From a virus (lineage: Duplodnaviria; Heunggongvirae; Uroviricota; Caudoviricetes; Crassvirales), in the IMG/VR virus record IMGVR_UViG_3300033120_000148, positions 11,764-75,763 of that record: a stretch of DNA of 64,000 nucleotides, one strand, 5' to 3'. Below are positions 37 to 56,105 of this stretch, piece by piece. The notes beneath the pieces were generated by a model. It was given only the letters and a program-made list of their open reading frames with translations, ran no database searches and was not told where the DNA came from. A program made the translations under genes and the position numbers. The first letter of the stretch is position 1; the number at the start of each line of letters is the position of its first letter.

Positions 37-100
37 TATATATAGTAAATTACTATATAAGTACAATAAATTTAATAAAATCCTTGTTACATTGATATAT

Positions 101-121
101 TTTTAGTATCTTTGCAGCAAG
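101..121 (+). promoter_or_regulatory. Bacteroidota-type promoter, -7 element TATCTTTG (TAnnTTTG) inside extended motif TTTTAgTATCTTTGCAgCAA
   Basis: Sits ~28 nt upstream of the ATG at 142. A near-identical motif recurs at 6958-6978. Matches the Bacteroides sigma-A -7 consensus TAnnTTTG. Confidence 0.5.
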
Positions 122-141
122 GATTTTTAATATTATTAAAT

Positions 142-852
142 ATGAGTAAATATAAAGAACTAGTATATATGGTTCTAGATGAATTGAAACTAATTTCTGA
201 TGATTCTACCTTTACAGAAGATCACATTATATTTCAACTTAATAAATATAGAACAATGTTATTAAAGTAGAAGTATAGTGATGTAAAAAAATAGATACCA
301 GAAAGCAATTATTAGTCTATAGTTTTACCATTATAGGATATAGTACAAGTAGATTCATCTATACATTACTATTAGTCTACTAATAAAGTTCCTATAATGA
401 TACCTATAGGACAAGCAAGAGTAACTCCAATAGATTATTATATAGGAGAATTAACTCTTATATCTAAAGAAAGAATGAGATATGTTGGTTACAATAAGTA
501 TCTAAAGAATATAGCATATTGTTCTATATCACCAGATTATTATCTTATGTTCTACTAGTCTCCTTTAGCTGCTACACCTTTATCTAGAGTCAGGCTTACA
601 GCAGTATTTGAAGATGCTGATAAAGCAGCTTTACTTGCATATGGTAATACTGAAACTAATTTAATGGAATTAGATTTTCCAATTGAGGAAGGTATGATTC
701 CTTAGTTAATACAATTTGTAGTAAAAGAAATTGCAGGACCTTCTTGGAAACCTAAGGATGATAATAATAATAGTAGTGATGATTTATCAGAACTAGCTTC
801 ATTTGTAGCTAGAAATACTAAATCAGGATTACAGCAATAGATGGAAAGTTAA
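142..852 (+). CDS. Hypothetical late/virion protein, 236 aa, translated with TAG as sense (~12 in-frame TAG), TAA stop
   Basis: Single frame from ATG 142 to TAA 850-852 has no TAA/TGA but many TAG. The ORF track reports nothing here because of the TAGs. Confidence 0.55.
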
Positions 853-1382
853 TGGAAGATATTAAACAGTTTAAAGCCAGAGTATTAAAGATACATGATA
901 CTAGAACACATAAAGTAAATAATTCTTTAGGTGTATATGATTCCTATAAATGGCTAAGAAAGAATAAATGGTTTGATATAGGGCATGTAGATGAACATAC
1001 TTATTATACTATAATAAGAGAAATTAATAAACTTATGGCACAAGAATTAAGTAATGGTAACCCTATTACATTACCTCATAGACTTGGTAAACTAGAATTA
1101 AGAAAGAACTCTGCTAAAATATATAGAAAGGATGGTAAAATAAAGACTAATTTACCTATAGATTGGAATAGAACTTTACAACTGTGGCATGATGATGAGA
1201 CAGCTTGTAATGACAAAGTTTTAGTAAGACAAGAATCTAAGGAAATATTTAGAGTTATTTATAATAGATCTAGAGCAAGTTTTACTAATCAATGCTTCTA
1301 TACATTTAATATTAATAGGGATATTAAGAAGAGTTTAAAAAATAATATTAAAACTGGGAGGATGGATGCCTTCATATTATAA
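852..1382 (+). CDS. Hypothetical protein, 176 aa, with no TAG codons although embedded in the recoded block
   Basis: Intact ORF in the track. Its start overlaps the previous stop (TAATG) and its stop overlaps the next start (TAATGG). Uses CAA/CAG for Gln. Confidence 0.6.
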   Translation: MEDIKQFKARVLKIHDTRTHKVNNSLGVYDSYKWLRKNKWFDIGHVDEHTYYTIIREINKLMAQELSNGNPITLPHRLGKLELRKNSAKIYRKDGKIKTNLPIDWNRTLQLWHDDETACNDKVLVRQESKEIFRVIYNRSRASFTNQCFYTFNINRDIKKSLKNNIKTGRMDAFIL

Positions 1383-2089
1383 TGGAATCAAATTATATAT
1401 CAATAAAACAAATATTAGATAATGTTCTAGTGCATCCTATGTTATAGGATGTTACATTAGAAAGAGCTGTTTCCTATGCTATAGATTTTATGAGGATTGT
1501 AGGTATGCCTACAATATTCATGGAGAAAGTTACAACACTAGAATTAGTGGATAACAGAGTACTATTACCTGATGATTTCTTTGAAGTTATATAGATTAAA
1601 ATGACTTCAAATAAAAGGGCTGAGGTATTTAGAAGCTCTGGAGATAGTTTTCATATGGACACACCTACAGATGAGACATTGCAATCTCATGCTTTATAGG
1701 AACTAACCTATAAGATATAGGGAGGAGTTCTAATAGCTTCTGTATCTACAGGAACTATATCTTTAGCTTATAGAGCCATCCCTTTAGATACAGATGGTTA
1801 TCCATTAGTAATAGATAATAGTCCATTTACTAGAGCTTTAGAATTATATATTAAAAAGTAGGCTTTTACTATCTTATTTGACATGAATAAGATACCTATG
1901 AATGTGTATTAGAACACAGTTAGAGAATATGCTTTTGCAGTAGCTTAGGCTTCCTCTTCTCTTACAAGACTTAATATAGACCAAATGCAAAGCTTTACTA
2001 ATATGTGGAATACTCTAATACCTAGAGTAACTGAGCATCATAATAGTTTTAAAACATTAGGTTCTCAGGAAAAATTAAAAATGTAGTAA
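1382..2089 (+). CDS. Hypothetical late/virion protein, 235 aa, TAG read as sense, TAA stop
   Basis: Frame starting at ATG 1382 runs to TAA 2087-2089 with ~12 in-frame TAG and no TAA/TGA. Confidence 0.55.
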
Positions 2090-2090
2090 T

Positions 2091-5000
2091 ATGGTAGTAA
2101 AACATTCTTCACATTTAATTAAGGGAATGCAGCAAGATTCCAGTCCTTCTATTGCTAATAGTGAGTATGCAATAGATGCTAGAAATATTAGAATTACAGC
2201 AAGAGAGAATACTTCTCTATTTTCTGTAGTAAATGAGAAAGGTAATATTGAAATTACTTTAAAGACAATTAATGGTACTGATGCTACTTTGATAGGTGAT
2301 TATGTAGGACATGCAGTCTTAAATAATTACTTAGTAGTATTTATGCACTCATCAGACTATGACTATATCTATAGACTTGAAAAGAAAATAGATTATAAGC
2401 TTGTAGAATTCTTAGAAGTAGTAACTCTATACCAAGGAAATTTAGGTTTAGATGTCAGTCATCCTTTGGAAACTTTGCCTATATTTGAAAATGAAGACAT
2501 CTAGAAAATATACTGGACTGATGGACTAAATCAACCTAGAGTTATTAATATAGTTGCTACTTAGAATGTAAGAGCTAAATATACTTCTACATCATTTGAT
2601 TTTGTTAGAAAACTTAATCTATAGGAGAAGGTAACAATTAATAGAAATGTAGTAACAAATGGTTTATTTTCTCCTGGGGTACTATAGTATGTATTTACAT
2701 ACTATAATAAATATGCTTAGGAAAGTAATATATTCTATACTTCTCCTCAGTATTATACCTCATTTAATAATAGAGGAGCATCTCCTGAAGATAGTATAAG
2801 TAACAGCTTTGATATAAATATCTCAAACATGGATTATAACTTTGATTATGTTAGAGTTTATTCTATTATGAGAACTTCTATTGATGCTACACCTACTTGT
2901 AAAAGAGTTATAGATATAGCTTTACCTACATCTTAGGAATATTCAATAAAATAGTCTACAGAAACACTATAGACTACAGATAAACTGGTGTGGTATGATG
3001 GAAAAAGCACATATTCTACAGATACAAATCCTACTGGAAGTTTTACAATATTAAGTAGTTATGCCTATATATAGCATGTAACTTCTTCTGGATATACTAT
3101 GATATATAATAGTTTTAATGAGGGTGATGTTATTAATCTATCATTTACTAATGGTGATAATAATACTAAAGTATATACAGTAGATATTACTAGACCCACA
3201 TCAATTACTTATACAGATACAGGTACTCAAGGATCTACTATAGATCCTACTGAACTACTATATGTAGGAGGTGAAGAGGTTATATTTGGTACAATGAACT
3301 AGAAAGATAATACACTATTTCTAGGTGATATAACTCTAAAAAGAAAATTATTAAGTACTTAGTTAAGGACTTTAGTAGCTTCTCATCTAGTGAATTTTAA
3401 TTATGCTCTAGATGATATAGGTAGTTATAAACGTCTAAATCTACCTTCAGCATCTGGTTATTATCCATATGATAATTAGCTTAAGTATAACTCAAGTCAG
3501 ATAAAGACATTTAAATATCTTGAGTACTATAGATTTGGTATCCAAGCTTAGCATTATACAGGTAAATGGTCAGAACCTATTTGGGTAGATGATGAACAGA
3601 ATTTAGTTCCTATTAGTAATGACCCTACATAGGGAAGTAACAGCTTTAATACTGTAAAATTAGTTACAGCTTCTACTAACTTTGGTAGTGATATTATACA
3701 AATGCTACTTGACTAGGGGTATGTTAAAATTAGACCTGTAGTAGTATATCCTACTATTAATGATAGAGAAGTAATATGCCAAGGTGTATTATGCCCTACA
3801 GTATATAATGTTAAAGACAGACATGAGAATGCTCCATTTGCTTAGTCTTCATGGTTTATAAGACCTAATGCTCCATTTGATTTAAAGAAATCATTTGATA
3901 TGAAAGCAGATGGAACTAATATATCTGATATGCACTTATTAGGGGATTATACTACTACAGATATAGTATCTAGAGGTGGAATATTATCAGCAGGTAGATC
4001 TACAATAAAAGATGTACAGCCCGATGGCTCTATAAAATATATACCTATTGATGTATCTAACTTTGGGGATTGGGCTGAATTTAGGCATAATTATCCAATA
4101 CCAGATAACTTATCTAGACAGGCAGAAATTCAATCAATTTCTTCTCCACCAAGTAATCCTTACACTCAATATAATGAAGATAATTTAATAAATGATTATA
4201 TTGATTCTAATAAGTAGAATTATTATGTTGACTAGTCTATTTTAACATTCCACTCTCCTGATATAGAATTTGATTCAGAAGTAAGAAGTTTAGATTCTTC
4301 TAATTTAAAACTTAGAATAGTTGGAGTTGTTCCATTAACTTCATTTTATAGTGATATTGAGTTAAATACTTCAACTCCTGTATTACAATTTAAGGGTACA
4401 TCTGACTTGCCAAATGGTTTCTATAAAGAAAGAATGAGTGCTTAGAATCTATTCAATACACCAGGCTCTCTTGGAATATCTACTAAGTTAAAATCAGAAT
4501 CTAATTTTGGATGGAGAGGATGCTAGGCAGCACCAATGTGGTTTGATGAAGTATATGATTCTACTTACAATACTAATACTGATCATAAGGTTACAGGATT
4601 TGTAGTATATCCATGGCATAGAAGTGGATCTATGAATAATCAAAAGAATGGAGAAGGTGATAGTAAATATAGATACTCATTACTTCAAAAGAAATAGATG
4701 TCGACTATAAGATTTTCTTATAACACTTTCTATTTAAGTATTAATAATTTATGGAATGCTTATATAAAGGATTCTACTACTAATACTGGTATATCAGGAG
4801 TAAATATATTTGACTCTGATTAGATCTCAGTTACTAAGATTAAAGCTTAGGAAAACTCAGGATTATAGGATATAAATTACTATGGAAATATTGATAAGTT
4901 ACTAATAGGAAATTACTCTGGCAGCTCAAATGCTGGTTATACTATAGCTATAGGTGGGTCTATGAATGATTCCTCTACTAATATTCATAGTATATTCTCT

Positions 5001-6863
5001 GCTCCTAAATATAAATCTTGCTCCTCTTTAGCTAATGCTGGTAATATATCTGGTACAGACCCTGTTAGAATTAAATATAAATCTACTGCTCATGCAGTTC
5101 TAGCATTAAATTATGCTAAAGATGGGAGTCAGAGAGTTTTACCAACAACTTATGATAGTAGCTATTACTATGGAACTAATGGATAGACTTGGGCTATAAA
5201 TAATGTAGGAGGTAATTTCTCAGATGTAACAGGTACTGAATCTAATGTAACAGGTTATGATGATAGGGGGGAGCCTACATATGAGGATCAAACAATTTCT
5301 TATAATGTTTGGGGATTCTGGGATAAGAAACATATTACAAAATCTGTAAGTCAAGATACTCTTAATGTGGGTAAAATAGGTGATAGTTCTGAAGGTACTA
5401 TTCAATATGGATGGTTATGGTTAGGAGAACTTTATAATGACTCTGTAACTAATAGATTTGGTGGTAAAACTGAGGAAGCTTTTGAAAATAATAAATGGTT
5501 ACCTTGTGGTAGCCCTATTAATTTAAAGTAGGCTAATGGTACTACTAAAACTTCAGTAAATGTTATATGGTCTGAGGGTGATACTTACTATTAGAGATAT
5601 GATAATCTAAAGACATTCCCATTTACAAATGATGATATAAATCAGGTAACAGATATAGTATCATTTATGGTAGAAACAAGAGTTAATCTTGATGGTAGAT
5701 ATGATAGAAATAGAGGACAAACAAGTAATATAACTATGAGTCCTACTAATTTTAACTTAATGAATAATGTATATAGTTAGAAGAATAATTTCTTTACTTA
5801 TAATACCGTTAATCCTAACAAGTTAAATCTAGATAATTTCCATAATTCTATCACATGGACTAAGTCTAAGACTATGGGGGATCTAATAGATACTTGGACT
5901 AATATTACAATGGCTTCTACTTTAGATTTAGATGGTGATAAAGGTATAGTAAGATCACTTAAAAAGTTTAATAATGAAATATATGCTTTTTAGGATAGAG
6001 GAATAAGTAATATTCTATTTAATTCTAGAACTCAATTATCTTCAACAGATGGAATACCAATTGAAATAGCTAATAGTGGAAAAGTTGATGGTAAAAGATA
6101 TATAGCTACTAATCTAGGTTGTGCTAATAAATGGTCTATAAATGAGACTTCTAATGGTATATATTTTGCTGACAAAGAGAATAATTCAGTTTATTTATTT
6201 GATGGTAAATTTAGTAGTTTAACAGATAAATTTGGTTTTAGAAAGTGGCTTGGTGATTAGACTCCATACTTTAATAATTTTAGAACTTACTGTGATAAGA
6301 ATAATTCAGATATTTACTTTAATGTAAATAATGGTGACTCATCATCATAGTGTTTATGCTTCTCTGAATTCTTAAATCAGTTTACTTCTTTTATGTCATA
6401 TACAGATGTAGACTCTATGTTTAATCTGGGAAGTGACTTCTATGCTATTAAAAATAATAAGATATGGCATAACTTTGAAGGTGAATATAATATGTTCTTT
6501 GGTACATTCTAGCCTTTTAGTCTAACAGTTATATCTAATTAGGATGAAAATCTAGATAAGATATATAATAATATTGAATTTAGATCTGATACTTTTAATG
6601 GGCAAGTTTCTACTAATAATACTTTTGATACACTGGATGTATGGAATGAATATCAACATGGTACTATGAGTTTAATAAATACTAAAGATAAACCTTCTTC
6701 ACTTAAAAGAAAGTTTAGAGTATGGAGAACATTAATACCTAGAGATAATATAAATAGTAGGGATAGAATTAGAGGTACTTGGGCTTATGTAAAGTTAGCT
6801 ATGAATAATCCTAATACTTTTAGAACTCAATTATATGACTTAAATGTTCATTTCTTTGAATAA
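2091..6863 (+). CDS. Giant virion/tail-type structural protein, ~1590 aa, TAG recoded as sense
   Basis: All five track fragments (2091, 3099, 3900, 4962, 6666) are in the same frame. Codon-by-codon reading finds only TAG between them, no TAA/TGA, ending at TAA 6861-6863. A 4.7-kb frame free of TAA/TGA in ~30% GC DNA is non-random. Confidence 0.6.
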
Positions 6864-6887
6864 TGTAGTATAATTATATATAATATA

Positions 6888-6937
6888 ATGGGTAGATTAA
6901 GTTAAATCTTAGTCTACCCATAATTATTTTAATTAAG
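6888..6937 (+). terminator. Rho-independent terminator: 14-bp stem (ATGGGTAGATTAAG / CTTAGTCTACCCAT, one U.G), 6-nt loop, then AATTATTTTAATT
   Basis: Perfect inverted repeat immediately after the TAA of the 1590-aa gene, followed by the promoter motif at 6958-6978. Confidence 0.6.
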
Positions 6938-6957
6938 TTATTGTATATATCAATAAT

Positions 6958-6978
6958 TTTATTTATCTTTGCAACAAA
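6958..6978 (+). promoter_or_regulatory. Bacteroidota-type promoter, TATCTTTG -7 element inside TTTTATTTATCTTTGCAACAA
   Basis: Second copy of the motif seen at 101-121. Sits ~19 nt upstream of ATG 6990. Confidence 0.5.
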
Positions 6979-6989
6979 ATTTATATAGT

Positions 6990-9416
6990 ATGACTAAGAA
7001 ACAAGTTATAAGAAAGTCTAATAGAACACTAAATATATTTGCAGACGGAGGAACTACTGATAAAAAACCTACTGACAGTAAAGGATCTATTATAAATTCA
7101 TTATCAGGAGTTGGAGGGTCACTAGTAGGATCTATTGGTGGTGGTCTAGTTGGTGGTGGATTATAGTCTGGAGCAGGCTCTGCAATAAGTGGAATTGGAT
7201 CTACTGTTGGTGGAGCAGTTGGAGCAGTTAATCCATTACTGGGTGGTATAATAACAGCAGGCTCTGGTATTGTAGGAGGTTTAACAAATAGGATGTTTGG
7301 TTCTAAATTAAATAATTAGAAAATATCAGATATTTAGAGTTAGAATAATACTTTAAATACTACTATGCTTGATAGTAGTAATAATGATACTGTAGCTAGT
7401 TAGTGGGCATCATAGGGTTTTGGTGATAACTTTACTAGATCTGATATAGGAAAAGATGGCTGGTTTAGTAATAAAGCTGAAAATAAATATAAAGAATTAT
7501 AGCTTCAATAGAATGTTGCTAGAAATAGAATGATGGAGTCATATAATAATGCTGCAGATAATGCTGATGAGACTTAGGACTAGTTAGCTTTAACTAACTT
7601 CGCTGCTTATGGTGGACCACTTAATATATATGCTGAAGGTGGTAATCTACATTAGAAAGCTGTTACATATAAAAATAGGTTAGAAGCTGTAAGAGGACCT
7701 ATGAATGATGACTATGACTATACAGGATACTATATGAAGTATCCTAAAAAAGCAGAGGCAATGATTAAAGGAGATAAAAAAGCTCATTTTACTGATGAAT
7801 TTAAATTACCAAATCATGCTACTTTCTCTGATGAATCTATATACTCTAAACAAAGAGGTGGTGGAACTTAGGAAGGTGGACACTGGGGTTATTCAAATGG
7901 ACATGATACATTTAATGTATCTCAAGATAACTTTAATAATAATCCTAATCTTGGTTAGTATTTTATGCAGAATGAACCTAGTAGTATTCCTATATATAAT
8001 GGGGGAATATTATTACCACAAGTTACTATTTAGGGTAATAGATTTGCAGAAGGTGGTGAACTAGATGATTTAAATAATCATGGAGCTACTTGGTCTAATG
8101 GAGTTACATATATTAATAATGGTGGAACTCATGAAGAAAACCCTAATGAAGGTGTTTAGGTTGGAGTAGATTCTTAGGGAAATCCTAATCTAGTAGAAGA
8201 AGGTGAGGTAAAATGGAATAACTATATATTTAGTAATAGAATATTTGCTAATAAAAAAGGCTTAAAAGCTAGTAATTTGCCTACATCTTTAGATAATAAT
8301 TCATTTGCTTCAGCAGCAGAGAAAATTAGTAAACAATCAAAAGAGATGCCTAATGACCCTATTAGTAAAAGATCATTAAATGTATCTCTCTCAAGATTAT
8401 AGTAGTTACAAGAAAGTATGAGACAAAAGCAAAATAAAACATAGAATAGTAATCCTAATAAATTTGCAATTGGAGGTCCAACTGGAGATACATTTGAAGC
8501 CCCATTCAAAATGAGAGCTGATGGTACTTATCCTATTAATGATACTTATAGTTTACCTATTTAGAACCCAACTAAAGATTCAACTAAACGTGGTAAATTA
8601 TCATTATCTGATACTGCAATATCAGATATGTATAATGATAATTTAGTTAAATCAGCTACAAATACTAAGCTTGGTTTTAAGGTACCAGATATGGTAACTA
8701 CAACTAAGAAACCTCCTAGTGATCCTAATAATTTTGACAAGGGATTACCATTTTTAAGATATGCCCCAGCTATAGGTTCTGGTGTAGCAGCTTTCACTGA
8801 TATGATGGGATGGACTAATAAACCAGACTACAGTGGAATAAATAAAATAAGTGACACTGTAAATCACATGTCACCTGCTTCATATAGACCCATAGGTGAC
8901 TATATGACATATAAGCCACTAGATAGAAATTACTATTAGAATATGCTTGACTCATAGGCTGAATCTACAAAGAGAGGTATAGTTGAATAGTCAGGTGGAA
9001 ATAGAGCTACAGCTATAGCAGGTTTACTTGCAGCAGATTATAATGCTTAGAGTAAAGTTGGTGAACTAGCTAGATAGGCAGAAGAGTATAATCAAGGACT
9101 AAAGGAAAGGGTTAAATCATTTAATAGAGGTACAAACTAGTATAATTCAGACTAGGCTCTAAAAGTAGATGAACTTAATATGAATCTTGATAGACTTAAA
9201 TATGAATCTTCTGTACAACAAGCACAAATGAGATAGGAAGCTTTAGCTAGAGCTACTGCTGCTAGAACTGCTAATATTTCTAACTTCTTTAATAACTTAG
9301 GTGGTATTGGAAGAGAGGATACACAGAAGAATTGGATTAGATCAAACCCTGGTTTCCTATATGATATTAGTGATAACGGTATATCTTATAAAAATAAAAA
9401 GAAAGGAGGTAATTAA
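6990..9416 (+). CDS. Virion structural protein, ~808 aa, Gly-rich N-terminus (GGSLVGSIGGGLVGGGLQSGAGSAISGIGSTVGGAVGAV), TAG recoded
   Basis: Frame 0 from ATG 6990 (the track's 6969 start is a TTG) to TAA 9414-9416. Contains track fragments 6969 and 8628. Many in-frame TAG, no TAA/TGA. Confidence 0.6.
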
Positions 9417-9417
9417 T

Positions 9418-11205
9418 ATGTCAGATTATAGTTTAGTTGTAAATTCACAATTTTAGCCATTTTCATATTAGGAAATGTTAGCTCCTGTGTTACAAGCAAC
9501 CTAGGCACAGCAAGATATAGAGAATCAGTATAGTATGCTTGATTCTGAGGCTAATACTATTTAGTAGAGAGCTTTAACAGATAGTAATTCTGAATGGGCT
9601 AAGAAATATACTACTTATACAAAATAGTTAGAGGACTCTGCTGCAGATTTAGCAGCAAATGGTTTAACTCCATCATCTAGGAGTTCTTTATTAAAATTAA
9701 AAAGAGACTATTCAAGCAATGTAAATCCTGCTTTAATGGCTATCCAAAGATAGGCTGAAATAGCAAGAACTTAGTAGGCTAAAAATGGTGAGGGAGTAAG
9801 AATGGTTTATGGAGCAATGCCTTCCATTGACTAGTTGATAGCTGATCCTAATTTAGATAGAGTTAGTTATAGTGGTAAGGACATTGAAGCTTCTGCTGCA
9901 AATTCTGCTGCTGCTGCTTCTGCAAGACATGTAATAGATAACTTTAAGAAAGACCCAGCTAATGCTGGTTGGATGAAACATATTAAAGAAACTGGATATA
10001 GTTCACAAGCATTTAATGCCTTACTTAATGAAGCTAAGAATTCAAGTGATCCTAATGTAAATATATTAGCATAGATTACAAATTAGGTTAAGCAACAATT
10101 TGGTAACTTTGAAGGAGTATCTGATGTAGATAAACATAGACTAGAAGGTGAAATACTATCAGGTTTATTCAAAGGTTCTGTATATAGAAATGAGGATAAC
10201 TATTAGACAGATCCTATCTATATGGCTAATTTACAATCTAGTCTTGAGGAAGGTAGATAGATTAGAGCTGAGAATAGAGCACTTGCTAGAGAGAACCCAG
10301 GTAATACATCTACTAATGGTGTAGCACCTAATCCTATTAATATGTATTCTCCTAAAGAGAAGAAGGAACAAGCTGATGCAATATCTAAATTTAAGCAGTA
10401 TTTCTATAGAGATAACTCTGGTTAGGTTAAAATGACTTATAAAGGACTACAAGAATATAGAAGAAATGCAGCTATAGTACCAACTGTAGCAGGGTCTGGT
10501 GGAGGAACAGCAGCTTTAATGAATGCAGAAACAGCTATGGGTAGAAAGAGAGGTTATCAACCTACTTAGTTCAAAGTATTTATGGATAAACTTGGTGCTA
10601 ATCATTATATAGATAGTAAGAAATTTAAAGGTGGTAAGGGTTGGCAACCAGGCAATGTAGGTAATCTTTGGTCTAGATATAGTTCTGCAAATAATGCAGG
10701 TAAATATGATGCTACTAAAGCTACTCAATATGAGTATAAAATTGCTAAAGATCAATAGGATCTTACAAAGGATAATATAGTTATGGCTTTAAAGAATTAG
10801 CCAGCATATGAAGTAGCATTTAATGGTACTACATTAGCTAGAACTCATAAAGTTCTTTCATATAGTGATCTATATACAAATGGTAGAGTAGTAGCTACAA
10901 GATTGAGTCCTTATGGTAATACATTTGTAGTCATTGATAAATCAGGAAAGGTTAGTGAATATGAAATGCCTCCTGGAATTAATCCTACTAATGAAGGTAA
11001 CAGAGATAAATTGCTAAAACAATTACCTACAATGTAGTAGGTATTAAAAACTGGCAAAGCTGGTAATCATATATTAAAGCCTAAGGAAAAGGAAGACTTA
11101 CAAAGTCTATATAATTAGAATATATAGAATGCTTACATGTATAACTCTTAGCTCAATGTAACTAATACTACAGAACCTTAGAAGGCTTATCCTTATTCTT
11201 ATTAA
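9418..11205 (+). CDS. Hypothetical virion protein, ~595 aa, TAG recoded
   Basis: ATG overlaps the previous stop (TAATATG). Frame 1 contains track fragment 9835 and ends at a triple TAA (11203-11211). Confidence 0.55.
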
Positions 11206-11213
11206 TAATAAAT

Positions 11214-14200
11214 ATGGGAACATTAAAATAGGTAAAATAGAAACCAATAGATATATTGAAAACTGGTCCTGCCAGTTTTAGAGAACTACAATAGGCTAAC
11301 CAGTCAAACTTTAGTCCTTAGTATTAGGCATTTGTAAATGACTTAAAGATTAAGTCTCAGCCAACATCATTATTTGATGCTGCTGCTTAGGCTTAGCAGG
11401 ATGTTGCTTCTCCATTAAATAATAGTGAAACACCATGGGGTAAAAGTAAATTTGATGCTACTTCAGCTAATGATAACACATTTAATAATTTAGGTGATAT
11501 TAGAGCTGAAAATGAACCTTGGTATGATAAAATAGGTGCAGGTATTTCTAAGGGAGCAGTACTAGCAGGTACTACTTTCTTAGATGGTACTCTTGGTTTA
11601 TTATATGGAGCAGGAACTGCAATTTCTCAAGGAAGAATATCAGGTATTTGGGATAATGATTTCTCAAGGTCTATGCAAAGTATTAATAATTATATGGAGA
11701 AAGAACTTCCAAATTATTATACTTAGAAAGAACAATAGGCAGCTTGGTATAGTCCAGATAATATATTTACAGCTAACTTCCTAGGAGATAAATTTATAAA
11801 GAACTTAGGATTTAGTATTGGTGCTTTTTATTCTGGTGGTGTTACAGCCTCTGGATTAAAATTAAGTCAATTACCATAGTTAATTGAAAAAGTAACAGGT
11901 ATAACAAATGCAGCTAGTCATGTAACTTCTGCTGTAGGTGCAACTATATCTGCTGTTAATGAAGGTAGAATAGAAGCCCTTAATAATTCAGGAGATTGGT
12001 ATAAGGCTTAGAAGACTATACTTGATGACAAATATAAATCAAGAATAGAGGCTATTTAGTAGTAGTATCAAGCTAATGCTAACAGACAAATGATTAAAAC
12101 TGCTGAGGGTTCTTATGTAGATCCTGCTTATTTACAATATAAGCAAGATATAGCTAGAGAATAGAATTCATATCAAGGTACTCTTAGAAAGATGAATGAA
12201 GACAGGTTACATATGGGCAATGTTGATTTATTAATGAACTTACCTATATTAACTGCTTCTAATCTTATATAGTTTGGTAAGATGTATGCTAATGGATTTA
12301 AGACTGCTAGAAAGACTACAAATATTACTGGAGGAATTGGTAATTATGCAGCTAATACATCTAATGCGAGAGCTGCTCTTGCATTCACTAAAAGTGCTTT
12401 ATCAGAAGGTAATGAGGAAGTACTTCAATAGGCTGCTAGTAATATATCTGGAGATTATTATGCTACAGATGTAAATAACTATTATAAAGCTAAAACTGAT
12501 CCTAAGGCAGCTAAAGATACTCTAAGTTGGACAAAAGCTTTTGCTTAGGGAATGAATGAAACATTAAATGATAACTCATCTTGGGAATAGTTCCTTATAG
12601 GTAGTATAACAGGTGCACTTGGTATGCCTAGATTTAGGTCTATTAAGAATGCAGAAGGTCATTTTCAGTTTCCAGTAACTTTAGAAGGAGGTGCTTATAA
12701 TCAGTTTAAAGATTATAGAGAGGAAGCAGCTAGAACTCAAGGAGTAGTAGATTATTTAAATAACAGAGTTAACTCCCCTGATTTTAAGAATTACTATCAA
12801 GGACTTGTTAGACATAATAAGTTCTAGAATGATATGAATTAGGCAGTAGATAATAATGATGATTTTAATTTCAAGAATGCTGAGCATTCTCAATTAGTTT
12901 CTGATGTTTCCATGTTTGCAAAAGCTGGAAAATTAGAAGATCTAAATACATTAGTGAAAGCAGCTTATGATACATCTGATGATAATTTAAAATCTATTAC
13001 TGAGAACACTACAACTAAAACTCCTAATGGTATATCTGGTCCATTTGTAGACTCTAGTGGTAATCCTATGTATGCTACTGAAGCAGGTAAATAGGAGATG
13101 ATTAATAAGCTTACTAAGTCTAAAGATGAGATAATGAAGGAAGTAAATAACTATAGTAAGATAAGAGACTAGATTAATGCAAGTACTAATGAAGCTCTTA
13201 CTGATGATTAGCTTGATGAATTAACTTGGATGACTTCTTAGATAGGTAACTTTGAAGACAGATCTACTGAGATGGCTAAGGATATTAAAACTTCTATATC
13301 TAAAGTTATAGGTAATCTTTCTTCTAAATTATCTTTGGCTACACAAATTAGACATCAAGAAGGTAAGGACCATGCAGATTTAACACCTGTTTACAGACAA
13401 GCAGATAAAGCAGTTATCAACTTAACTAAGACTATGGATAGTTTAAACTCACTACAAAGTCGAAGTGATGATTCTATGCTAAGTGCTTTAACTGATAACC
13501 CAGAAGTTGTAAATTACTTAAATAAGCAAATAGATAATCTAGATGAATCTGTACTAGATAAAGAATCTAAGAAAGATATAAATTAGAAATTGAATGATAT
13601 TCTTAAACTTGGTAAAGCTATAGATGTATTTAGAAGTAAACTAGATGAATACACCAATAACCCTGCTAAATAGTAGGAAGACCATGCTAAGATTGATACT
13701 GATAAAATAAAGGAAGAAGAGGCAAATAAGAAAGCATCTATAAAAGATAGATTAAGAAATGCTAAAGATTTATAGGAGTATAGATCTATATTAAGTGATG
13801 AGGAAGATGACACAGATGATGCTGTAAAAGACTTACAAAATGAGAACCATAACTTAACTATAACTAATAAAAAGATTAATAGTAGGTATAGAAGCTTGCA
13901 AAATGCTATACTTAATAATAAAGATATAGATGATGAAACTAAGTAGGATGCTCTTGATATGTTGGATAATCATTATAATAAAGCCAAATCACTTGGTGAA
14001 TTCAGAGATCCAAACTCAGCAAGTCTAACTGATGAAGACTACTTCAATCATGATACAGGATTTAATGAAGGGTCATCTAATGATAGATTTTAGAAAGCTA
14101 AATATGCAATTGATAAAGCTTTTGAAAAGGTAGTTAAGGATAATAACTTCATGAGGTCTCTAGCTTAGTAGCAGCCATTACAAGATATAGTTAGGCAGAC

Positions 14201-17200
14201 TACTGAAAAAAATGGAGTTAAAATAACTAAATATGGAAGAAGAAAAGGAGATAAAATAATTAATGGTACTGGTCCTAGCATAAGTAAAGATGATATTCCT
14301 GAATCAGAATTAGAAACTATTGAAGGCCTACTTGATGATATGGGAGATACAGCTAAGTTAGAACTGATTGAATTAAGAGAAAGGGATGGAAAATATTCTG
14401 GAACTGTAAGACTTAATGGGCAGATAAGTGGTGCTCCTATTAATGAAAAATTTGAATTTCTATTTGATAAAAATCCAGATAAACTGAGGGGTGTAGATAA
14501 AGAAGAAACAGGAGATAGTAAAACAGCAACAATACCAACAGAAGATAATTCAAATGAATTACCCAGGACAATTAATGAAATACCTGTAGGTGATTATTCA
14601 ATAGATGAAGTTAAAGAAGAGAATAAAAACTCTGATACTAATGATAAGAAACTTACATCTAAAGATAATTCTTAGTACTATATTCCTGCTGTACCAGAGT
14701 TGGATATTGAAGCTAGTAGAAATGGTGATTATAGAAACTTTGATGAAGTTAAAAAGGAGTAGAATCCTAAACTAGATTTCTCTAAAATATATAATTATTT
14801 ATCTAGTAATAATGCTTTTTCATATGTAAATGAAGGTAATCTTAAAGAAGGTGATAGATTAGGTTTTATGATAGATCCTAACTTTAGTGATACTACTATA
14901 TTTATTATTGATAAGAAAAATAATTAGATAGTAGGTTCTCTATTTGAGTCTGATTATAAACTAAAACAGTATGAAGGCTTGGAGCAATTAGTTAACAAGA
15001 TATATCAAGAATATAAAAATAGAGAAGATAGAAATTCTAAATTTATAGCTACTCCTACTACAAGAGTGTCTTAGATGCTTGTAGGTAGAATTCCATATAT
15101 TGCAGATGAAAAGAATCTAAAGAATGTAATAGAAGAAGGTAAAGCTAATAGTACTATTTTTGGCATAGTTAAAAATGGGTCTATTACTACTAATGAAGCT
15201 ATTCCTAGTGATTAGATTATGATGCACTCTGGATTAGATGGTAAAGAAGGTAGATTATATATGTTACTATCTAATGCTGCAGGTAAATATTCACCTGTAG
15301 CTGTGAGAGTAAAGCACTTTAATGCTGATGAATTTAATCTAGATGATGCTACTGTAGCAGAAACACCAATGGGTAAGAGTATTTCTAAAGCTATAAATGA
15401 TTTAGCTAGATCCTCATCTTAGGAAGACATAACTAATGCAATGGTTAATCTAATATAGGATATTCATCTGCAAGATGAGATAATTACTCCTATGGAGAAT
15501 AACAAAGGTAGAGGTATTCTTATAAGTTCTAAGGTCAAGGGAGCAGATGGTAAATATGAAATGGTTGAAATAGATGGTAAATAGTATATTAAAGAAACTA
15601 GAATACCTATTTACTTTACTAAAGAGGTTAAACCAGTAGAAAAGAATGGACTAAGTCTAGAATTTTCATCATTTGAAGCGGCTGATATTCCTAGTAGTAG
15701 TGTAGAGATGAAGCCTGTTTAGGATATAGTAAAGGAAATAACAAATGCTTTATATTCATTGAATAAACCTTTACAAGTAAGTACTGGAAGAATTAATTAG
15801 TCTGGATATAATGCTAGAATAATTAACTCAAATATACTTTCATCAAATATTAGTTCTACTAAAATTAAAGGAAGTTTCTTTACAACAGATTACTTTGATA
15901 AATCAGGAAATCTACATGCTGCTATAACAGTAGCAAATAATAGACCTTCAGTAGGAAGAAAAATTGAAACTGTTGTTGGTGGAAAAGAGAGTGCTATTCC
16001 AGGAACTCCTGTAAATCTTAATAATATATAGTACTATGTTGATTTATCTACTAAGGAAATAAGAGATAAATTCAATAATAAAGTTACTACTAATTAGGAT
16101 TTACTATTTAATCTAGCTTGGGTAAGAAATAACTATGGTAGATTAAAGAGTACTGGTGCTATTAAAAATAATAAAGTTTTATTGCCTGATGGTAGGGCAC
16201 TAGATATTAGTAAATAGAAGATATTAAGTGGAAAAGAGTATGATAAATTTATAGATTCATTAGATGCTGTAAAAGAGAGTACAGAAGCTAATTACTAGGA
16301 TGGATTAAAGGCTGTAGAGCAAATGCAAGAAAACTAGAAATTAGTTGATAGTCAGACCTATTCTATATTGGAAGATGATGGTAATTATTATGATTATACT
16401 CCTGCTGTAGATAAAGCACAATCTAGAGATACTATTTTAGACAATGGTCTTCACACATTAATACTATAGTTTTTTAATTCATCTGAACCTATAGTTAAGC
16501 CTGATACTATGACTAAGAAAGCCTATTAGGCATTAATAGATTAGCTAAATAATATTAAAGAAGCTTTAGAAAATAGAGGTGAGAGATTTATATCTAATAA
16601 TATAACATTATTCTATAAGTATCCAAATGGAGATAGAATAGCTGCTAAGGTAGATATAATGACTATGGATAAAGATGGTAGATTTAGATTATATGCTGTT
16701 AGAAAATAGTCTTAGAATAAAGATGATATACAGAAGATAACTAAAGAATTATCTATTATGTCAAATCTATTTAGTTCTCAATATAACTTGCCTATTTATT
16801 CTATGGCTATAATACCTTTCTCTGTAAAAACAAGAGGAAATAAGGTATCTGAGACTAAATTAGAAAAGGGTATATCTATCAAATAGAATGCAGGTACTGA
16901 TACACCAGCTATAGGTAATATATAGAAAGCTAAATCTACATTACCAATATTTGAAAGTTCCTTAGAAACTCTAAAACCTATTAATGATGTTAATACTGAC
17001 AACAGATCATTAGATTCTGATACAATAGGTTATTTCTAGATTGAAGGTAAGTTACATACTGGTTATTTAATGCCTATAGGTAATATTGAAGGTAATGAGT
17101 TATATTTAACTAGAACTGCCAATATGACAAAAGGATTTAAAGACACTGTAGCTCATGCTGCAACTTATAATTATTTTGTAGTATTTCCTAATGGTGAAAC

Positions 17201-17717
17201 ATTTAATATTAAGAATAATAGCATTACAAAAGATCCTAAGGAAATGGCTAAAACAGCTATTAATCTTTTAAGTAAAAATCCTAATAGAGTAAAGGATATG
17301 TCTACTTCTGATACATTACTTTATAAAAAAGGTGAAGAGGTAACTTAGGAAGTTGAAAAACCTAAATTAACTACTGCTAATCTATTATAGAGTAGTAATA
17401 ATAAGTTAACAGCTTCTCAATAGACTGTATTAAAAGAGTAGGCTGTAGCTGATGTAGATGAAGAATTTGAAGATGATTTGGATCTAGATGATATTACTAA
17501 TATAGGTGATTCTATAATGAGTGGTCAAAAGGCTGATATTACAGATTCTAATAATAGTAAAGATGATAGTAAGATTGATGTAATTACAGATATAGATTAT
17601 GATTCACTATCAAATGATGCTAAAAAGTCACTGACTTCAAAAGGTTGGACAAAAGCAAAGTGGAATAAAGTATCTATTGCAGAGAAGTAGAAAGCTCTAA
17701 ATTGTCTAGGTTTTTAA
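11214..17717 (+). CDS. Giant virion/tail-type protein, ~2167 aa, TAG recoded (dozens of in-frame TAG)
   Basis: Track fragments 12624, 12912, 13272, 14340, 15219, 17070 and 17478 all share frame 0. Read through, they are joined only by TAG codons, ending at TAA 17715-17717. Confidence 0.6.
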
Positions 17718-17763
17718 TTTGTTTGGTCATATTTCTAAGACTGTTAGGAATAAATTTTTTATA

Positions 17764-17803
17764 GGGGAAGCAGAGTAATCTGTTTCTCCTATTTTTGTTT
17801 GTT
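17764..17803 (+). terminator. Rho-independent terminator for the plus-strand arm: 10-bp stem (GGGGAAGCAG/CTGTTTCTCC, two G.U), loop AGTAAT, then TATTTTTGTTTGTT
   Basis: Hairpin plus T-tract ~45 nt after the stop of the 2167-aa gene. Confidence 0.5.
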
Positions 17804-17810
17804 AGGAATT

Positions 17811-17841
17811 AAAAAAAATAAGGGAAGATTTCTCTTCCCTT
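17811..17841 (-). terminator. Rho-independent terminator for the minus-strand arm: perfect 8-bp stem AAGGGAAG/CTTCCCTT, then an A8 run (U-tract on minus strand)
   Basis: Lies between the stop of the 1350-aa gene (17878) and the plus-strand terminator, giving a convergent terminator pair. Confidence 0.55.
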
Positions 17842-17877
17842 ACATTTTAATAACTAAAAATTATGAAATATATTAAA

Positions 17878-33170: not shown

Positions 33171-33970
33171 TCAGTGAACCCAATGCGTGTTTATTTCTGC
33201 ATCAGCAGGAATAGGCAAAGATTTACAATAAATAGCTGCAGCATCTTCCATTATTTTTTTTAATATAGATGGAAAATCTGTTATTTCTTCGGGGAACTCA
33301 CAATTTATTTCATCATGTACTTCTACACATAATTTAATTTTATTAAAATAGTTATTACTTACTATGTAGTTAAATAACATGATACTAGCTTTCTTTAAAA
33401 TTATAGCTCCAGTTCCCTGAGTTACTACATTTCTAGCTAATCTATCATAATTACCTGCTATTTTAAAATGTTTTCTAACTAGTAAAGCAATACTATCTCC
33501 AGTACCTTTATGATTTATTTTATAATCATCCCAAAATTCTCTAGTAAAACTATTTTGTACTGATAACCATTTATTAAAATCCCACCAATATAATCTAGTT
33601 CCAGTTAAAGGATTGATTAAAATGTAACCATTTTTTCTTACAAATTGTGATCCTTTTTTAGCAAAGGAAGAAACACCTATAAATTCCTTATCTAGCATAT
33701 CAATATAACTCTGAGCCTCTTCTACTGTACAATTAGCAGATTTTGCAATAGTTGGTGCTGCTGCTCCAAACATATATGCAAATTCTACACCTTTTACTTT
33801 CTTTCTCCATTTAGGGGCTAATGCCTTAACATCTGCTGCTGATTTACAACCACATTCTATACATTCTTTTCTGAATACAATCCAAGCAAACATATTATGA
33901 GTGTCTCCACTTCTTTCAAGAAATTCTTTTAAAAATTCTTTATCTTTGTATATATCTGCTCCTAATCTTG
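33171..33970 (-). CDS. polA: Family A DNA polymerase, exon 2 (motifs B and C)
   Basis: KKVKGVEFAYMFGAAAPTIAK is motif B (K..NFG..YG) and LCVEVHDEI is motif C (HDE). GDTHNMFA corresponds to Taq RDIHTETA. The N-terminal boundary is approximate and depends on the splice site. Confidence 0.8.
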
Positions 33971-55606: not shown

Positions 55607-56105
55607 TTTCTACTATTATTCTTAATTTCTTTGTATACTTTGGATCTTTAGCATAGTTTAATTCTTCAAGAAAGCTATAATAGCTCCCTCTATCATATTT
55701 ATATTGGATATATTTTATATAAGCTTCTACACTTTCTGACCAGTGTTTAAACTTATAATATCTTTTATTTTTACTATCATAAAGTCCAAATAGGTTATTA
55801 TTTTTTGTGCATACATCTGATTTAAAATTACCAGTTTCTAGTATGGCTTGAGCATAAACAACATTAGGATATTTAACCTCATAATATTCTAATGCTTCTC
55901 TTAATCCTTTTTCTGGATTTTTATTGAGAAACTCTGGATTATTTGTTTTTTCTTCTATTACAGTTTCATATGTTAATGTGTCATTAGTGTAACATGCTCT
56001 ATCACTAACTCTAGTATAATTAGTACTATCTTTTATTGTACATAATTGTATTTGCATACATAGTGCTACTAATAGAAATGTCACATTCATTATTTTTTGC
56101 TTCAT
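55599..56105 (-). CDS. Secreted GH73 N-acetylglucosaminidase (endolysin-type peptidoglycan hydrolase)
   Basis: Signal peptide MNVTFLLVALCMQIQLC. AQAILETGNFKS..NNLFGL matches the FlgJ/glucosaminidase motif AQAILESGWGKS..NNLFGIK. Confidence 0.65.
   Translation of the reverse strand: MKQKIMNVTFLLVALCMQIQLCTIKDSTNYTRVSDRACYTNDTLTYETVIEEKTNNPEFLNKNPEKGLREALEYYEVKYPNVVYAQAILETGNFKSDVCTKNNNLFGLYDSKNKRYYKFKHWSESVEAYIKYIQYKYDRGSYYSFLEELNYAKDPKYTKKLRIIVENE

What the first reader, a model, noticed from the sequence alone, without database searches (positions are those of the whole stretch)
2091..6863. Giant recoded structural gene (~1590 aa) invisible to standard ORF calling
Five separate track ORFs (2091, 3099, 3900, 4962, 6666) are in one frame and joined only by TAG codons. 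The stop is TAA and is followed by a 14-bp terminator hairpin. Standard annotation would report several small hypothetical proteins, or nothing, here. The product is probably a tail or tail-associated virion protein.
Basis: seen in the sequence. Interest (0 to 1): 0.55.

Follow-up and report, generated by a model that had tools for sequence, protein, structure and literature searches.

The report
TAG-recoded crAss-like phage muzzle gene
This is the gene for the tail-tip "muzzle" protein of a crAss-like gut phage, written in a genetic code where TAG means glutamine; it is a correct observation but a well-described phenomenon.

Summary
Frame 0 of 2091-6863 (+) holds 1590 sense codons with 33 in-frame TAG, no TAA or TGA, a terminal TAA, and a 14-bp hairpin at 6888-6921.

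Translated with TAG=Gln, the product is a full-length crassvirus muzzle protein. It matches PhiCrAss001 gp44 (PDB 7QOK, E=0, 1149 bits) and Pfam crAss_MUZ plus crAss_MUZ_C. It lies in the conserved order ring protein 2, IHF-like, ring protein 1, muzzle, cargo 1, cargo 2, gp47-like.

TAG behaves as a glutamine codon. In six standard-code homologs, 36.5% of residues aligned to TAG are Gln, against a 3.1% background and 43% at the gene's own CAA/CAG columns. Two recoded relatives swap TAG mainly with CAA/CAG.

Recoding covers the whole + strand late block (162 TAG). The - strand early/replication block has none and uses TAG as a true stop in 5 of 52 ORFs. No tRNA lies in the window, so the suppressor was not seen.

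All of this is already described: Yutin 2021, Borges 2021/22, Peters 2022 and Bayfield 2023. This is a new member of a known kind, from a Steigviridae-like lineage with no close reference genome. Interest is low.

The parts
107..120 (+). Promoter-like motif TATCTTTGCAGCAA (contains the Bacteroidetes-type TAnnTTTG element). It lies just after a hairpin at 2-31 and about 22-35 nt before the ATG of ring protein 2. Inferred start of the transcription unit that ends after the muzzle gene.
   Evidence: TATCTTTGCA occurs only at 107 and 6964 on the + strand. The sequence is shown and the hairpin at 2-31. Function as a promoter is inferred, not shown.
142..852 (+). Tail ring protein 2 gene (homolog of PhiCrAss001 gp40), with 8 in-frame TAG.
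   Evidence: Pfam CrAss_Ring_2, E = 6.3e-50. TAG count. Synteny.
852..1382 (+). HU/IHF-like protein gene (homolog of gp42). It is the only gene of the + block without any TAG.
   Evidence: 48-55% identical to the ORF at the same position in L004, bajarodcaudo virus 1, crAss001 (gp42, annotated HU/IHF-like) and cr126_1. It has 0 TAG and 5 CAA/CAG. There is no Pfam hit.
1382..2089 (+). Tail ring protein 1 gene (homolog of gp43), with 8 in-frame TAG. Its TAA ends one base before the muzzle ATG.
   Evidence: Pfam CrAss_Ring_1, E = 6.6e-64.
2091..6863 (+). Muzzle protein gene: 1590 aa with TAG = Gln, 33 in-frame TAG, and a TAA stop at 6861-6863.
   Evidence: frame and stop counts. Pfam crAss_MUZ, E = 0, 1046 bits. 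PDB 7qok_A gp44, E = 0, 1149 bits, aligned from residue 1 to 1589; 50 phage records cover at least 80% of the query.
2922..3194 (+). 91-aa insertion (aa 278-368) relative to gp44 position 266, inside immunoglobulin-like domain 1. It is predicted to be an all-beta module and contains 4 TAG codons.
   Evidence: Alignment. AlphaFold2 model of the 93%-identical P0001 segment gives pLDDT about 78-88 over the insert. Gp44 itself is the only PDB fold match with E <= 0.001. The insert is present in 55 of 121 top family members, including DAC15 and bajarodcaudo virus 1.
6480..6746 (+). Muzzle C-terminal domain (aa 1464-1552).
   Evidence: Pfam crAss_MUZ_C, E = 3.6e-20.
6888..6921 (+). Intrinsic-terminator-like hairpin (14-bp stem, 6-nt loop) that closes the ring/muzzle transcription unit.
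   Evidence: -22.9 kcal/mol, z = -5.6. Hairpins at the same position in L003, L004, bajarodcaudo virus 1 and crAss001 have different stem sequences.
6964..6977 (+). Second copy of the promoter-like motif, TATCTTTGCAACAA, 13 nt before the cargo-1 ATG.
   Evidence: The core TTTGCAA and the following AAATT are invariant across five phages.
6990..9416 (+). Cargo protein 1 gene (gp45 homolog), with 28 TAG.
   Evidence: Pfam crAss_CARG1, E = 2.3e-48. TAG count.
9418..11205 (+). Cargo protein 2 gene (gp46 homolog), with 24 TAG.
   Evidence: Pfam crAss_CARGO2, E = 2e-38. TAG count.
11214..17717 (+). gp47-like giant protein gene (2167 aa), with 61 TAG. It is the last gene of the recoded block and is followed by a hairpin at 17761-17792.
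   Evidence: 52% identical to the bajarodcaudo virus 1 ORF and 37% to crAss001 gp47. TAG count. Hairpin.

Best explanation
Window 2091-6863 (+) is one intact gene for the tail muzzle protein of a crAss-like phage related to Steigviridae. In PhiCrAss001 this protein (gp44) forms a hexameric, roughly 1-MDa assembly at the tail tip. That assembly is thought to gate ejection of DNA and cargo proteins and to contact the cell surface. The gene is written in genetic code 15: each of its 33 in-frame TAG codons is read as glutamine, and TAA ends it.

The gene is the last of a four-gene unit (ring protein 2, IHF-like, ring protein 1, muzzle). The unit is bounded by a promoter-like motif near 107 and a terminator hairpin at 6888-6921. 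It belongs to a + strand late block (142-17717) in which 57% of all Gln codons are TAG. The - strand block (17878-64000: RNA polymerase subunits, nucleotide metabolism, replication) is in the standard code and uses TAG as a stop.

The gene structure, protein identity, TAG = Gln and the block-wise code split are shown here. The following is inferred from published work on recoded crAss-like phages. Full-length muzzle protein can only be made once an amber-suppressor tRNA(CUA) charged with Gln is available in the infected cell. That tRNA is probably phage-encoded and lies outside this window. Recoding therefore restricts virion-protein synthesis to late infection.
For: Frame integrity: 33 TAG, 0 TAA/TGA, chance about 1e-48.

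Identity: Pfam crAss_MUZ (E = 0, 1046 bits) and crAss_MUZ_C (3.6e-20). PDB 7qok_A 'Muzzle protein gp44' (E = 0, 1149 bits), in four stretches spanning residues 1-1589 and crossing TAG positions. tblastn finds 74 phage records, all of the crAss-like kind, the best being bajarodcaudo virus 1 at 48.6% over 100% of the query. PHROG 28748, virion structural protein.

Synteny: Ring_2, Ring_1, CARG1 and CARGO2 flank the gene, in the same order as in crAss001, cr126_1, bajarodcaudo virus 1 and L004.

TAG = Gln: at the 33 TAG columns, six standard-code homologs have Gln in 66 of 181 aligned residues. That is 36.5%, an 11.7-fold enrichment, against 43% at the gene's own CAA/CAG columns. Seven columns are invariant Gln. 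BLOSUM62 sums are Q 305, E 169, K 54, and the ranking Q > E > K also holds for TAG columns of two relatives. Relatives L003 (93% aa) and L004 (67% aa) have 34 and 38 TAG and no other in-frame stop. At the window's TAG positions they carry TAG 40 times, CAA/CAG 9 times and other codons 17 times. Counting TAG as Gln raises Gln content in the gene from 1.8% to 3.9%; the homologs have about 3%.

Block-wise code: 162 TAG in 5809 + block codons, against 0 in 10,440 - block codons. Five of 52 - strand ORFs end in TAG, including a glucosaminidase whose Pfam domain runs to its last residues.

Literature: TAG-to-Gln recoding of late genes in the beta group with suppressor tRNAs (PMC7886860). Peptide proof of code 15 in crAss-like phages (PMC9523058). 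Late-gene timing model (bioRxiv 10.1101/2021.08.26.457843). Muzzle structure and role (PMC10172136).
Against: No tRNA gene or any Rfam family was found in the 64 kb, and no release factor or aminoacyl-tRNA synthetase among the Pfam-scanned ORFs. The decoding agent is therefore unobserved. In crAss001 the tRNA array lies upstream of the terminase gene. The equivalent region is outside this window, and attempts to reach it in relatives failed.

Only 36.5% of aligned residues at TAG columns are Gln, so many individual positions are variable and uninformative on their own. No expression or peptide data exist for this genome. The T-tract after the window's hairpin is weak, so terminator function is inferred. 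The gatekeeper role is itself an inference of the structural paper.
Confidence: 0.93

Rival explanations
1. TAG is decoded as an amino acid other than glutamine (for example Glu or Lys), or ambiguously.
For: Glu is mildly enriched at TAG columns (2.1-fold) and ranks second in the BLOSUM sums. Most TAG columns are not strictly conserved. No tRNA was seen, so its identity elements cannot be read.
Against: Gln is enriched 11.7-fold, and the BLOSUM sum for Q is nearly twice that of E in three independent sets of TAG columns. Seven columns are invariant Gln in six standard-code homologs. CAA and CAG are the commonest sense codons replacing TAG in relatives. Peptides from other crAss-like phages show Gln at TAG (PMC9523058).
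Confidence: 0.04
2. The stretch is a decayed pseudogene or non-functional remnant of a muzzle gene that has accumulated nonsense mutations.
For: There are 33 in-frame stops under the standard code. Public standard-code annotation lists only fragments.
Against: All 33 stops are TAG and none is TAA or TGA, although the other frames hold 82 and 240 of those. There is no frameshift, and the alignment to gp44 is full-length. The same pattern occurs in every large ORF of the + block except one, and in relatives at 93% and 67% identity with partly shared TAG positions.
Confidence: 0.01
3. TAG is still mainly a stop. The locus yields short N-terminal products, and only rare read-through gives full-length protein (leaky attenuation rather than reassignment).
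For: TAG does act as a stop in the - strand block. The first 137 codons are TAG-free.
Against: With 33 TAG codons, even 90% read-through per site would give about 3% full-length product. The virion needs the muzzle protein as a hexamer per PMC10172136. TAG is the majority Gln codon of the gene (33 of 62), including at invariant Gln sites.
Confidence: 0.02

Closest known systems
PhiCrAss001 gp44 muzzle protein (PDB 7QOK/7QOL/8CKB; Pfam PF25731 crAss_MUZ and PF25729 crAss_MUZ_C; Bayfield et al. 2023, PMC10172136)
   Same: It aligns end to end: residues 1-1589 against 1-1370, 46% identity over 1340 aligned columns. The genomic position between ring protein 1 and cargo protein 1 is the same. The hairpin plus promoter-like motif downstream is also the same.
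   Different: The window's protein is 219 aa longer. The extra length comes from insertions of 91 aa in IG1 (at gp44 position 266) and of 45, 14, 40 and 8 aa in the crass-domain region. The paper reports length variation in the crass and IG2 regions, whereas the largest insert here is in IG1. gp44 is encoded in the standard code; this gene has 33 TAG sense codons.
Bajarodcaudo virus 1 'stabilization protein' XHH63385.1 (PQ006092.1, rodent faeces)
   Same: It is the closest named relative: 48.6% identity over 100% of the protein. It has nearly the same length (1599 aa), includes the IG1 insert, and has the same gene order.
   Different: Its gene has no in-frame stop, so it is in the standard code. 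At the DNA level only about 74% identity over short stretches is seen.
TAG-to-Gln (code 15) recoding of late genes in crAss-like phages (Yutin et al. 2021, PMC7886860; Borges et al., bioRxiv 10.1101/2021.08.26.457843; Peters et al. 2022, PMC9523058)
   Same: In-frame TAG is confined to the structural/late block, and the replication block is in the standard code. TAG aligns with Gln. The genome has low GC (about 29%).
   Different: Nothing essential differs. No suppressor tRNA is visible in this 64-kb window. One gene inside the recoded block (IHF-like, 852-1382) is TAG-free.
Unnamed metagenomic relatives P0001/L003 (Logan SRR31481197, 93% aa) and P0003/L004 (Logan SRR30464829, 67% aa)
   Same: Both are recoded muzzle genes of the same length, with 34 and 38 TAG, the same neighbours, and a TAA stop.
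   Different: TAG positions are only partly shared. The ORF after cargo 2 in L004 is almost unrelated to the window's gp47-like ORF.

Membership tests
Crassvirus muzzle protein (PF25731 crAss_MUZ + PF25729 crAss_MUZ_C; type member PhiCrAss001 gp44) | Sequence match to both family profiles above the curated cut-off | tested here: met
   crAss_MUZ scores 1046.5 bits against a cut-off of 27. crAss_MUZ_C scores 72.6 bits against a cut-off of 27.
Crassvirus muzzle protein (PF25731 crAss_MUZ + PF25729 crAss_MUZ_C; type member PhiCrAss001 gp44) | Full-length collinear homology to the solved gp44 chain (ring-joining domain, beta-propeller, IG1, IG2, crass domain) | tested here: met
   phmmer against the PDB: 7qok_A, E = 0, four collinear stretches, query 1-1589 to chain 1-1370. 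Gaps are insertions only. Domain folds were not modelled for the whole protein, which exceeds the 1200-aa limit. The IG1 segment model matches 7qol_P (E = 3e-4).
Crassvirus muzzle protein (PF25731 crAss_MUZ + PF25729 crAss_MUZ_C; type member PhiCrAss001 gp44) | Gene position immediately after ring protein 1 and before cargo protein 1 | tested here: met
   Pfam Ring_1 lies upstream and CARG1 downstream. The order is the same in four reference loci.
Crassvirus muzzle protein (PF25731 crAss_MUZ + PF25729 crAss_MUZ_C; type member PhiCrAss001 gp44) | Forms a hexameric gated assembly at the tail tip of the virion | not testable with these tools
   This requires cryo-EM or virion proteomics. It is known only for PhiCrAss001 (PMC10172136).
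Code-15 (TAG = Gln) late-gene recoding of crAss-like phages | Multiple in-frame TAG, and no other in-frame stop, in conserved late or structural genes | tested here: met
   There are 33 TAG in the muzzle gene and 162 in the + block, with 0 TAA/TGA in frame.
Code-15 (TAG = Gln) late-gene recoding of crAss-like phages | TAG positions correspond to glutamine in standard-code homologs | tested here: met
   36.5% Gln at TAG columns against a 3.1% background and 43% at CAA/CAG control columns. Seven columns are invariant Gln. Q has the best BLOSUM sum.
Code-15 (TAG = Gln) late-gene recoding of crAss-like phages | Early and replication genes are compatible with the standard code | tested here: met
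   There are 0 in-frame TAG in 10,440 codons of 23 - strand ORFs. Five of 52 - strand ORFs end in TAG.
Code-15 (TAG = Gln) late-gene recoding of crAss-like phages | Phage-encoded suppressor tRNA with anticodon CUA | tested here: inconclusive
   ARAGORN and Rfam find no tRNA in the window. In crAss001, however, the tRNA array lies upstream of the terminase gene, a region this window does not cover. PMC7886860 notes that recoding and detectable suppressors do not always coincide.
Code-15 (TAG = Gln) late-gene recoding of crAss-like phages | Peptides with Gln at TAG positions | not testable with these tools
   No proteomic data exist for this genome. Such peptides were shown for two other crAss-like phages (PMC9523058).
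Family Steigviridae (beta group of Crassvirales) | Closest relatives and gene order are those of Steigviridae genomes | tested here: met
   The named taxonomic hits retrieved (crAss001, cr126_1, cr106_1, cr85_1, DAC15) are Steigviridae, Asinivirinae. Synteny extends over the whole + block and the RNA polymerase genes.
Family Steigviridae (beta group of Crassvirales) | Placement by whole-proteome or conserved-gene phylogeny (terminase, portal, major capsid protein) | not tested
   Those genes lie outside the window. Muzzle identity to classified members is only 39-44%, and the nearest relative (bajarodcaudo virus 1) is itself unclassified below class.

The most novel reading that the evidence does not exclude
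This lineage might decode 162 or more late-gene TAG codons without a conventional phage-encoded tRNA(CUA). No tRNA of any kind is detectable in 64 kb. If the remaining part of the genome also lacks one, suppression would depend on a host factor or on a non-canonical RNA or enzyme. The single TAG-free gene inside the recoded operon (IHF-like, 852-1382) could then be the one product made before the code switch.
Probability: 0.07. Interest if true: 0.55.

Novelty: new member of a known kind. Interest (0 to 1): 0.15.

Why it matters
The main value is for annotation. In at least one public standard-code annotation, this 180-kDa conserved virion protein appears only as small hypothetical fragments (P0126, P0128). 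Re-calling the + strand block with code 15 restores seven recognisable tail and cargo genes.

The lineage has no reference genome within about 75% nucleotide identity. Its nearest named relative uses the standard code, and relatives at 67-93% protein identity are recoded. The lineage is therefore a usable comparison set for how TAG codons spread through a late operon. It does not open a new biological question.

Tried and rejected
1. Search for the suppressor tRNA. ARAGORN and Rfam on the window found nothing. Exact 40-mers from both window ends are absent from IMG/VR. An exact-product look-up of the last window ORF and of the 105-aa fragment found nothing. Related-locus scans with the last ORF found nothing. 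The scan with the SPFH protein returned three short phage-like contigs (70-83% identity). It also returned five loci at 62-66% identity, of which the three long ones examined have 36-49% GC and look bacterial (two have no tRNA, one a lone tRNA-Phe). Two further hits were weak (38-42%). The muzzle protein found no close relative in IMG/VR.

2. Recent horizontal transfer as the cause of the TAG-free IHF-like gene: rejected. Its identity to relatives (47-55%) tracks that of its neighbours.

3. A fold for the IG1 insert. The model is confident enough to call it all-beta. Foldseek against the PDB gives gp44 as the only match with E <= 0.001, so no functional assignment follows.

The 93%-identical P0001 segment was used instead.

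5. Sigma-70 promoter scan: fewer hits than in shuffles (97 against 110), so it is uninformative.

6. Release factor or aminoacyl-tRNA synthetase genes: none among the scanned - strand ORFs.
Full report
**Observation.** Under the standard code the + strand of 2091-6863 yields only five ORFs of 60 aa or more (2091-2504, 3099-3302, 3900-4217, 4962-5186, 6666-6863). Their starts differ by multiples of three, so they share one frame. Translating that frame gives 1590 codons interrupted 33 times. Every interruption is TAG; there is no TGA, and the only TAA is the terminal codon at 6861-6863. The nearest upstream in-frame stop is TAA at 2076. The other two + frames of the same stretch contain 82 and 240 TAA/TGA codons. 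From local trinucleotide frequencies, the chance of 1589 consecutive codons without TAA/TGA is about 1e-48. In 200 shuffles the longest such run was 158 codons. It folds at -22.9 kcal/mol, z = -5.6.

**What the product is.** With TAG read as Gln, the 1590-aa protein matches Pfam crAss_MUZ (E = 0, 1046 bits) and crAss_MUZ_C (E = 3.6e-20). It also matches PHROG 28748, a virion structural protein. Among solved structures, its only match is 'Muzzle protein gp44' of PhiCrAss001 (7qok_A; E = 0, 1149 bits). That alignment has four collinear stretches from residue 1 to 1589 and runs straight across TAG positions. The alignment begins at the first residue of both proteins, which fixes the start at ATG 2091, one base after the TAA of the preceding gene. 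tblastn against 50,697 phage records finds 74 hits, all crAss-like. The best is bajarodcaudo virus 1 (48.6% over the whole length), followed by Steigviridae such as cr126_1, cr106_1, crAss001 and DAC15 at 39-44%.

The neighbours confirm the assignment. The ORFs at 142-852, 1382-2089, 6990-9416 and 9418-11205 match Pfam Ring_2, Ring_1, CARG1 and CARGO2. The order R2, IHF-like, R1, MUZ, C1, C2, gp47-like is that of crAss001 gp40-gp47 and of three other loci.

According to the cryo-EM study of PhiCrAss001 (PMC10172136), gp44 forms a hexameric assembly of about 1 MDa at the tail tip. It has a ring-joining domain and a seven-bladed propeller like the T7 nozzle, two Ig-like domains, and a large 'crass fold' domain. 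A loop of blade 4 gates the channel. The authors infer a gatekeeper and cell-surface-contact role, and they note length variation through insertions. That functional reading is taken from the paper, not tested here.

**TAG is glutamine.** I aligned the window protein with six homologs whose genes have no in-frame stop: bajarodcaudo virus 1, cr126_1, crAss001, cr106_1, cr85_1 and DAC15. I also included two recoded relatives.
- At the window's 33 TAG columns, the standard-code homologs have Gln in 66 of 181 aligned residues (36.5%).
- The background is 3.1%, an 11.7-fold enrichment. At columns where the window uses CAA or CAG the figure is 43%, so TAG columns behave like ordinary Gln columns.
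- Seven columns are Gln in all six homologs (aa 199, 404, 585, 1230, 1301 and others).
- Summed BLOSUM62 scores rank Q (305) far above E (169) and K (54). The ranking Q > E > K also holds for the TAG columns of the two relatives.
- The relatives L003 (93% aa identity, 34 TAG) and L004 (67%, 38 TAG) also have no TAA/TGA in frame. At the window's TAG positions they carry TAG 40 times, CAA/CAG 9 times and other codons 17 times.
- TAG is the majority Gln codon of the gene (33 TAG, 20 CAA, 9 CAG). Counting it raises Gln content from 1.8% to 3.9%.

**Extent of recoding.** Treating only TAA/TGA as stops resolves the + strand of 79-17717 into seven large ORFs carrying 8, 0, 8, 33, 28, 24-26 and 61 TAG. 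The - strand of 17878-64000 consists of standard ORFs. In total there are 162 TAG among 5809 + block codons, and none among 10,440 codons of 23 - strand ORFs. In the - block TAG is a genuine stop for 5 of 52 ORFs. One is a glucosaminidase whose Pfam domain runs to its last residues. The next TAA/TGA follows 0-9 codons later. The - block encodes the crAss001 gp49/gp50-like RNA polymerase subunits, ThyX, a family-A DNA polymerase, NrdD, UDG, ThiF-like, primase-like and helicase proteins, among others. The genome is thus dual-coded by block. This is exactly as described for beta-group crAss-like phages by Yutin et al. (PMC7886860) and for crAss-like and other gut phages by Borges et al.. Peters et al. 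provide peptide-level proof of TAG = Gln in two crAss-like phages (PMC9523058).

**Transcription-unit anatomy.** The decamer TATCTTTGCA, which contains the Bacteroidetes-type TAnnTTTG element, occurs only twice on the + strand, at 107 and 6964. Each copy sits just after a strong hairpin (2-31 and 6888-6921) and 13-35 nt before an ATG (142 and 6990). The four genes between them abut or overlap by one base (TAATG junctions at 852 and 1382; TAA-T-ATG at 2089/2091).

The intergenic region after the muzzle gene aligns across the window, L003, L004, bajarodcaudo virus 1 and crAss001. The promoter-like core is invariant. The hairpin keeps its position and stability but has different stem sequences (-20 to -23 kcal/mol, z -4.2 to -5.9 in the four sequences where the whole stem was folded). 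I infer one late transcript covering R2, IHF-like, R1 and MUZ, ended by this terminator. This is supported by conservation but not by expression data. The T-tract in the window is weaker than in the relatives.

**What was not found.** ARAGORN and Rfam detect no tRNA and no other RNA family in the 64 kb. No release factor or aminoacyl-tRNA synthetase was seen among the scanned ORFs. In crAss001, 23 of 25 tRNA genes lie between the divergent early region and the terminase gene. The equivalent region is outside this window. Every route to it failed. The step 'a phage-encoded tRNA(CUA)-Gln, made from standard-code-compatible DNA, enables late translation' is therefore an inference from the literature, not an observation here.

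**Differences from the type protein.** Relative to gp44, the window protein has insertions of 91 aa at gp44 position 266 (inside IG1) and of 45, 14, 40 and 8 aa at positions 501, 629, 866 and 884 (crass-domain region). The IG1 insert is present in 55 of the 121 best family members, including the cultured Bacteroides phage DAC15, so it is a common variant. An AlphaFold2 model of the corresponding segment of the 93%-identical P0001 gives an all-beta module with pLDDT about 78-88 over the insert. Foldseek against the PDB returns the PhiCrAss001 tail assembly as the only match with E <= 0.001.

**Is it new?** No genome in the reference phage collection is close. The muzzle gene has only a 140-nt match at 77%. 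The 24 kb after it match bajarodcaudo virus 1 at about 74% over 12% of the query. Public metagenome-derived protein sets already hold full-length code-15 predictions of this protein's cluster: 14 members at 90% identity or more, from ENA and Logan assemblies. The same cluster holds two JGI/IMG 'proteins' of 67 and 105 aa from a 75,763-bp contig. They are identical to window ORFs 3099-3302 and 3900-4217. The finding is a correct re-annotation and a new member of a known kind. It is not a new mechanism.

**Verdict.**
- Observation: confirmed.
- Interpretation: supported, and sharpened from 'tail or tail-associated protein' to the muzzle protein.
- Mechanism: code-15 late-gene recoding, with the suppressor unobserved.
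- Confidence in identity and TAG = Gln: about 0.93.
- Interest: low (0.15).

Noticed in passing
window 852-1382 (+): The HU/IHF-like ORF is the only gene of the recoded + block without a single TAG (5 Gln codons, all CAA/CAG). Elsewhere in the block 57% of Gln codons are TAG, so the chance of this is about 0.015. Its homolog in L004 has 7 TAG. Its identity to relatives tracks that of its neighbours, so recent transfer is unlikely. It may be chance, or it may allow translation before the code switch.
   Followed up: partly
window 33171-36400 (-): The family-A DNA polymerase is split. One ORF at 35015-36400 carries the 3'-5' exonuclease and the N-terminal polymerase part. A free-standing LAGLIDADG endonuclease ORF lies at 34130-34933. 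The C-terminal polymerase part is at 33171-33977. This suggests an intron-type insertion, but no Rfam group I or II intron reached threshold.
   Followed up: partly
window 32389, 48318, 55599, 60530, 61939 (- strand stop codons): Five of 52 - strand ORFs end in TAG, including a glucosaminidase (55599-56105). The next TAA/TGA lies 0, 2, 3, 9 and 5 codons downstream. Once TAG is suppressed late in infection, these proteins would gain only short tails.
   Followed up: partly
window 107-120 and 6964-6977 (+): The motif TATCTTTGCA(G/A)CAA occurs only twice on the + strand. Each copy lies just after a strong hairpin and shortly before an ATG. The core is invariant at the equivalent site in crAss001, bajarodcaudo virus 1, L003 and L004. 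It is a likely late promoter of the Bacteroidetes TAnnTTTG type.
   Followed up: partly
window 11214-17717 (+) versus L004 17681-23864: The giant ORF after cargo 2 is 52% identical to that of bajarodcaudo virus 1 and 37% to crAss001 gp47. It is essentially unrelated (22% over 201 aa, E = 0.09) to the ORF at the same position in L004, whose muzzle protein is 67% identical. This indicates a module replacement between fairly close relatives.
   Followed up: no
window 56541-58121 (-): A phage-encoded Cpn60/GroEL-like chaperonin of 526 aa (Pfam Cpn60_TCP1, E = 1.5e-59). It lies next to an SPFH/band-7 protein (58410-59240) and a PNK-phosphatase-like ORF (59693-60193).
   Followed up: no
window 17761-17843: Two facing hairpin terminators (17761-17792 on +, 17843-17818 on -) mark the convergent junction of the recoded + block and the standard-code - block. 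GC skew and AT skew change sign at the same place.
   Followed up: no
window 3099-3302 and 3900-4217 (+): JGI/IMG proteins P0126 (67 aa) and P0128 (105 aa), from a 75,763-bp contig, are identical to these standard-code fragments of the muzzle gene. The window probably comes from that contig, which could not be retrieved with the available scans.
   Followed up: partly
window 1-64000: No tRNA, tmRNA or Rfam family was detected anywhere in the 64 kb of a phage that needs amber suppression. In crAss001 the tRNA array lies upstream of the terminase gene, a region not covered by this window.
   Followed up: yes
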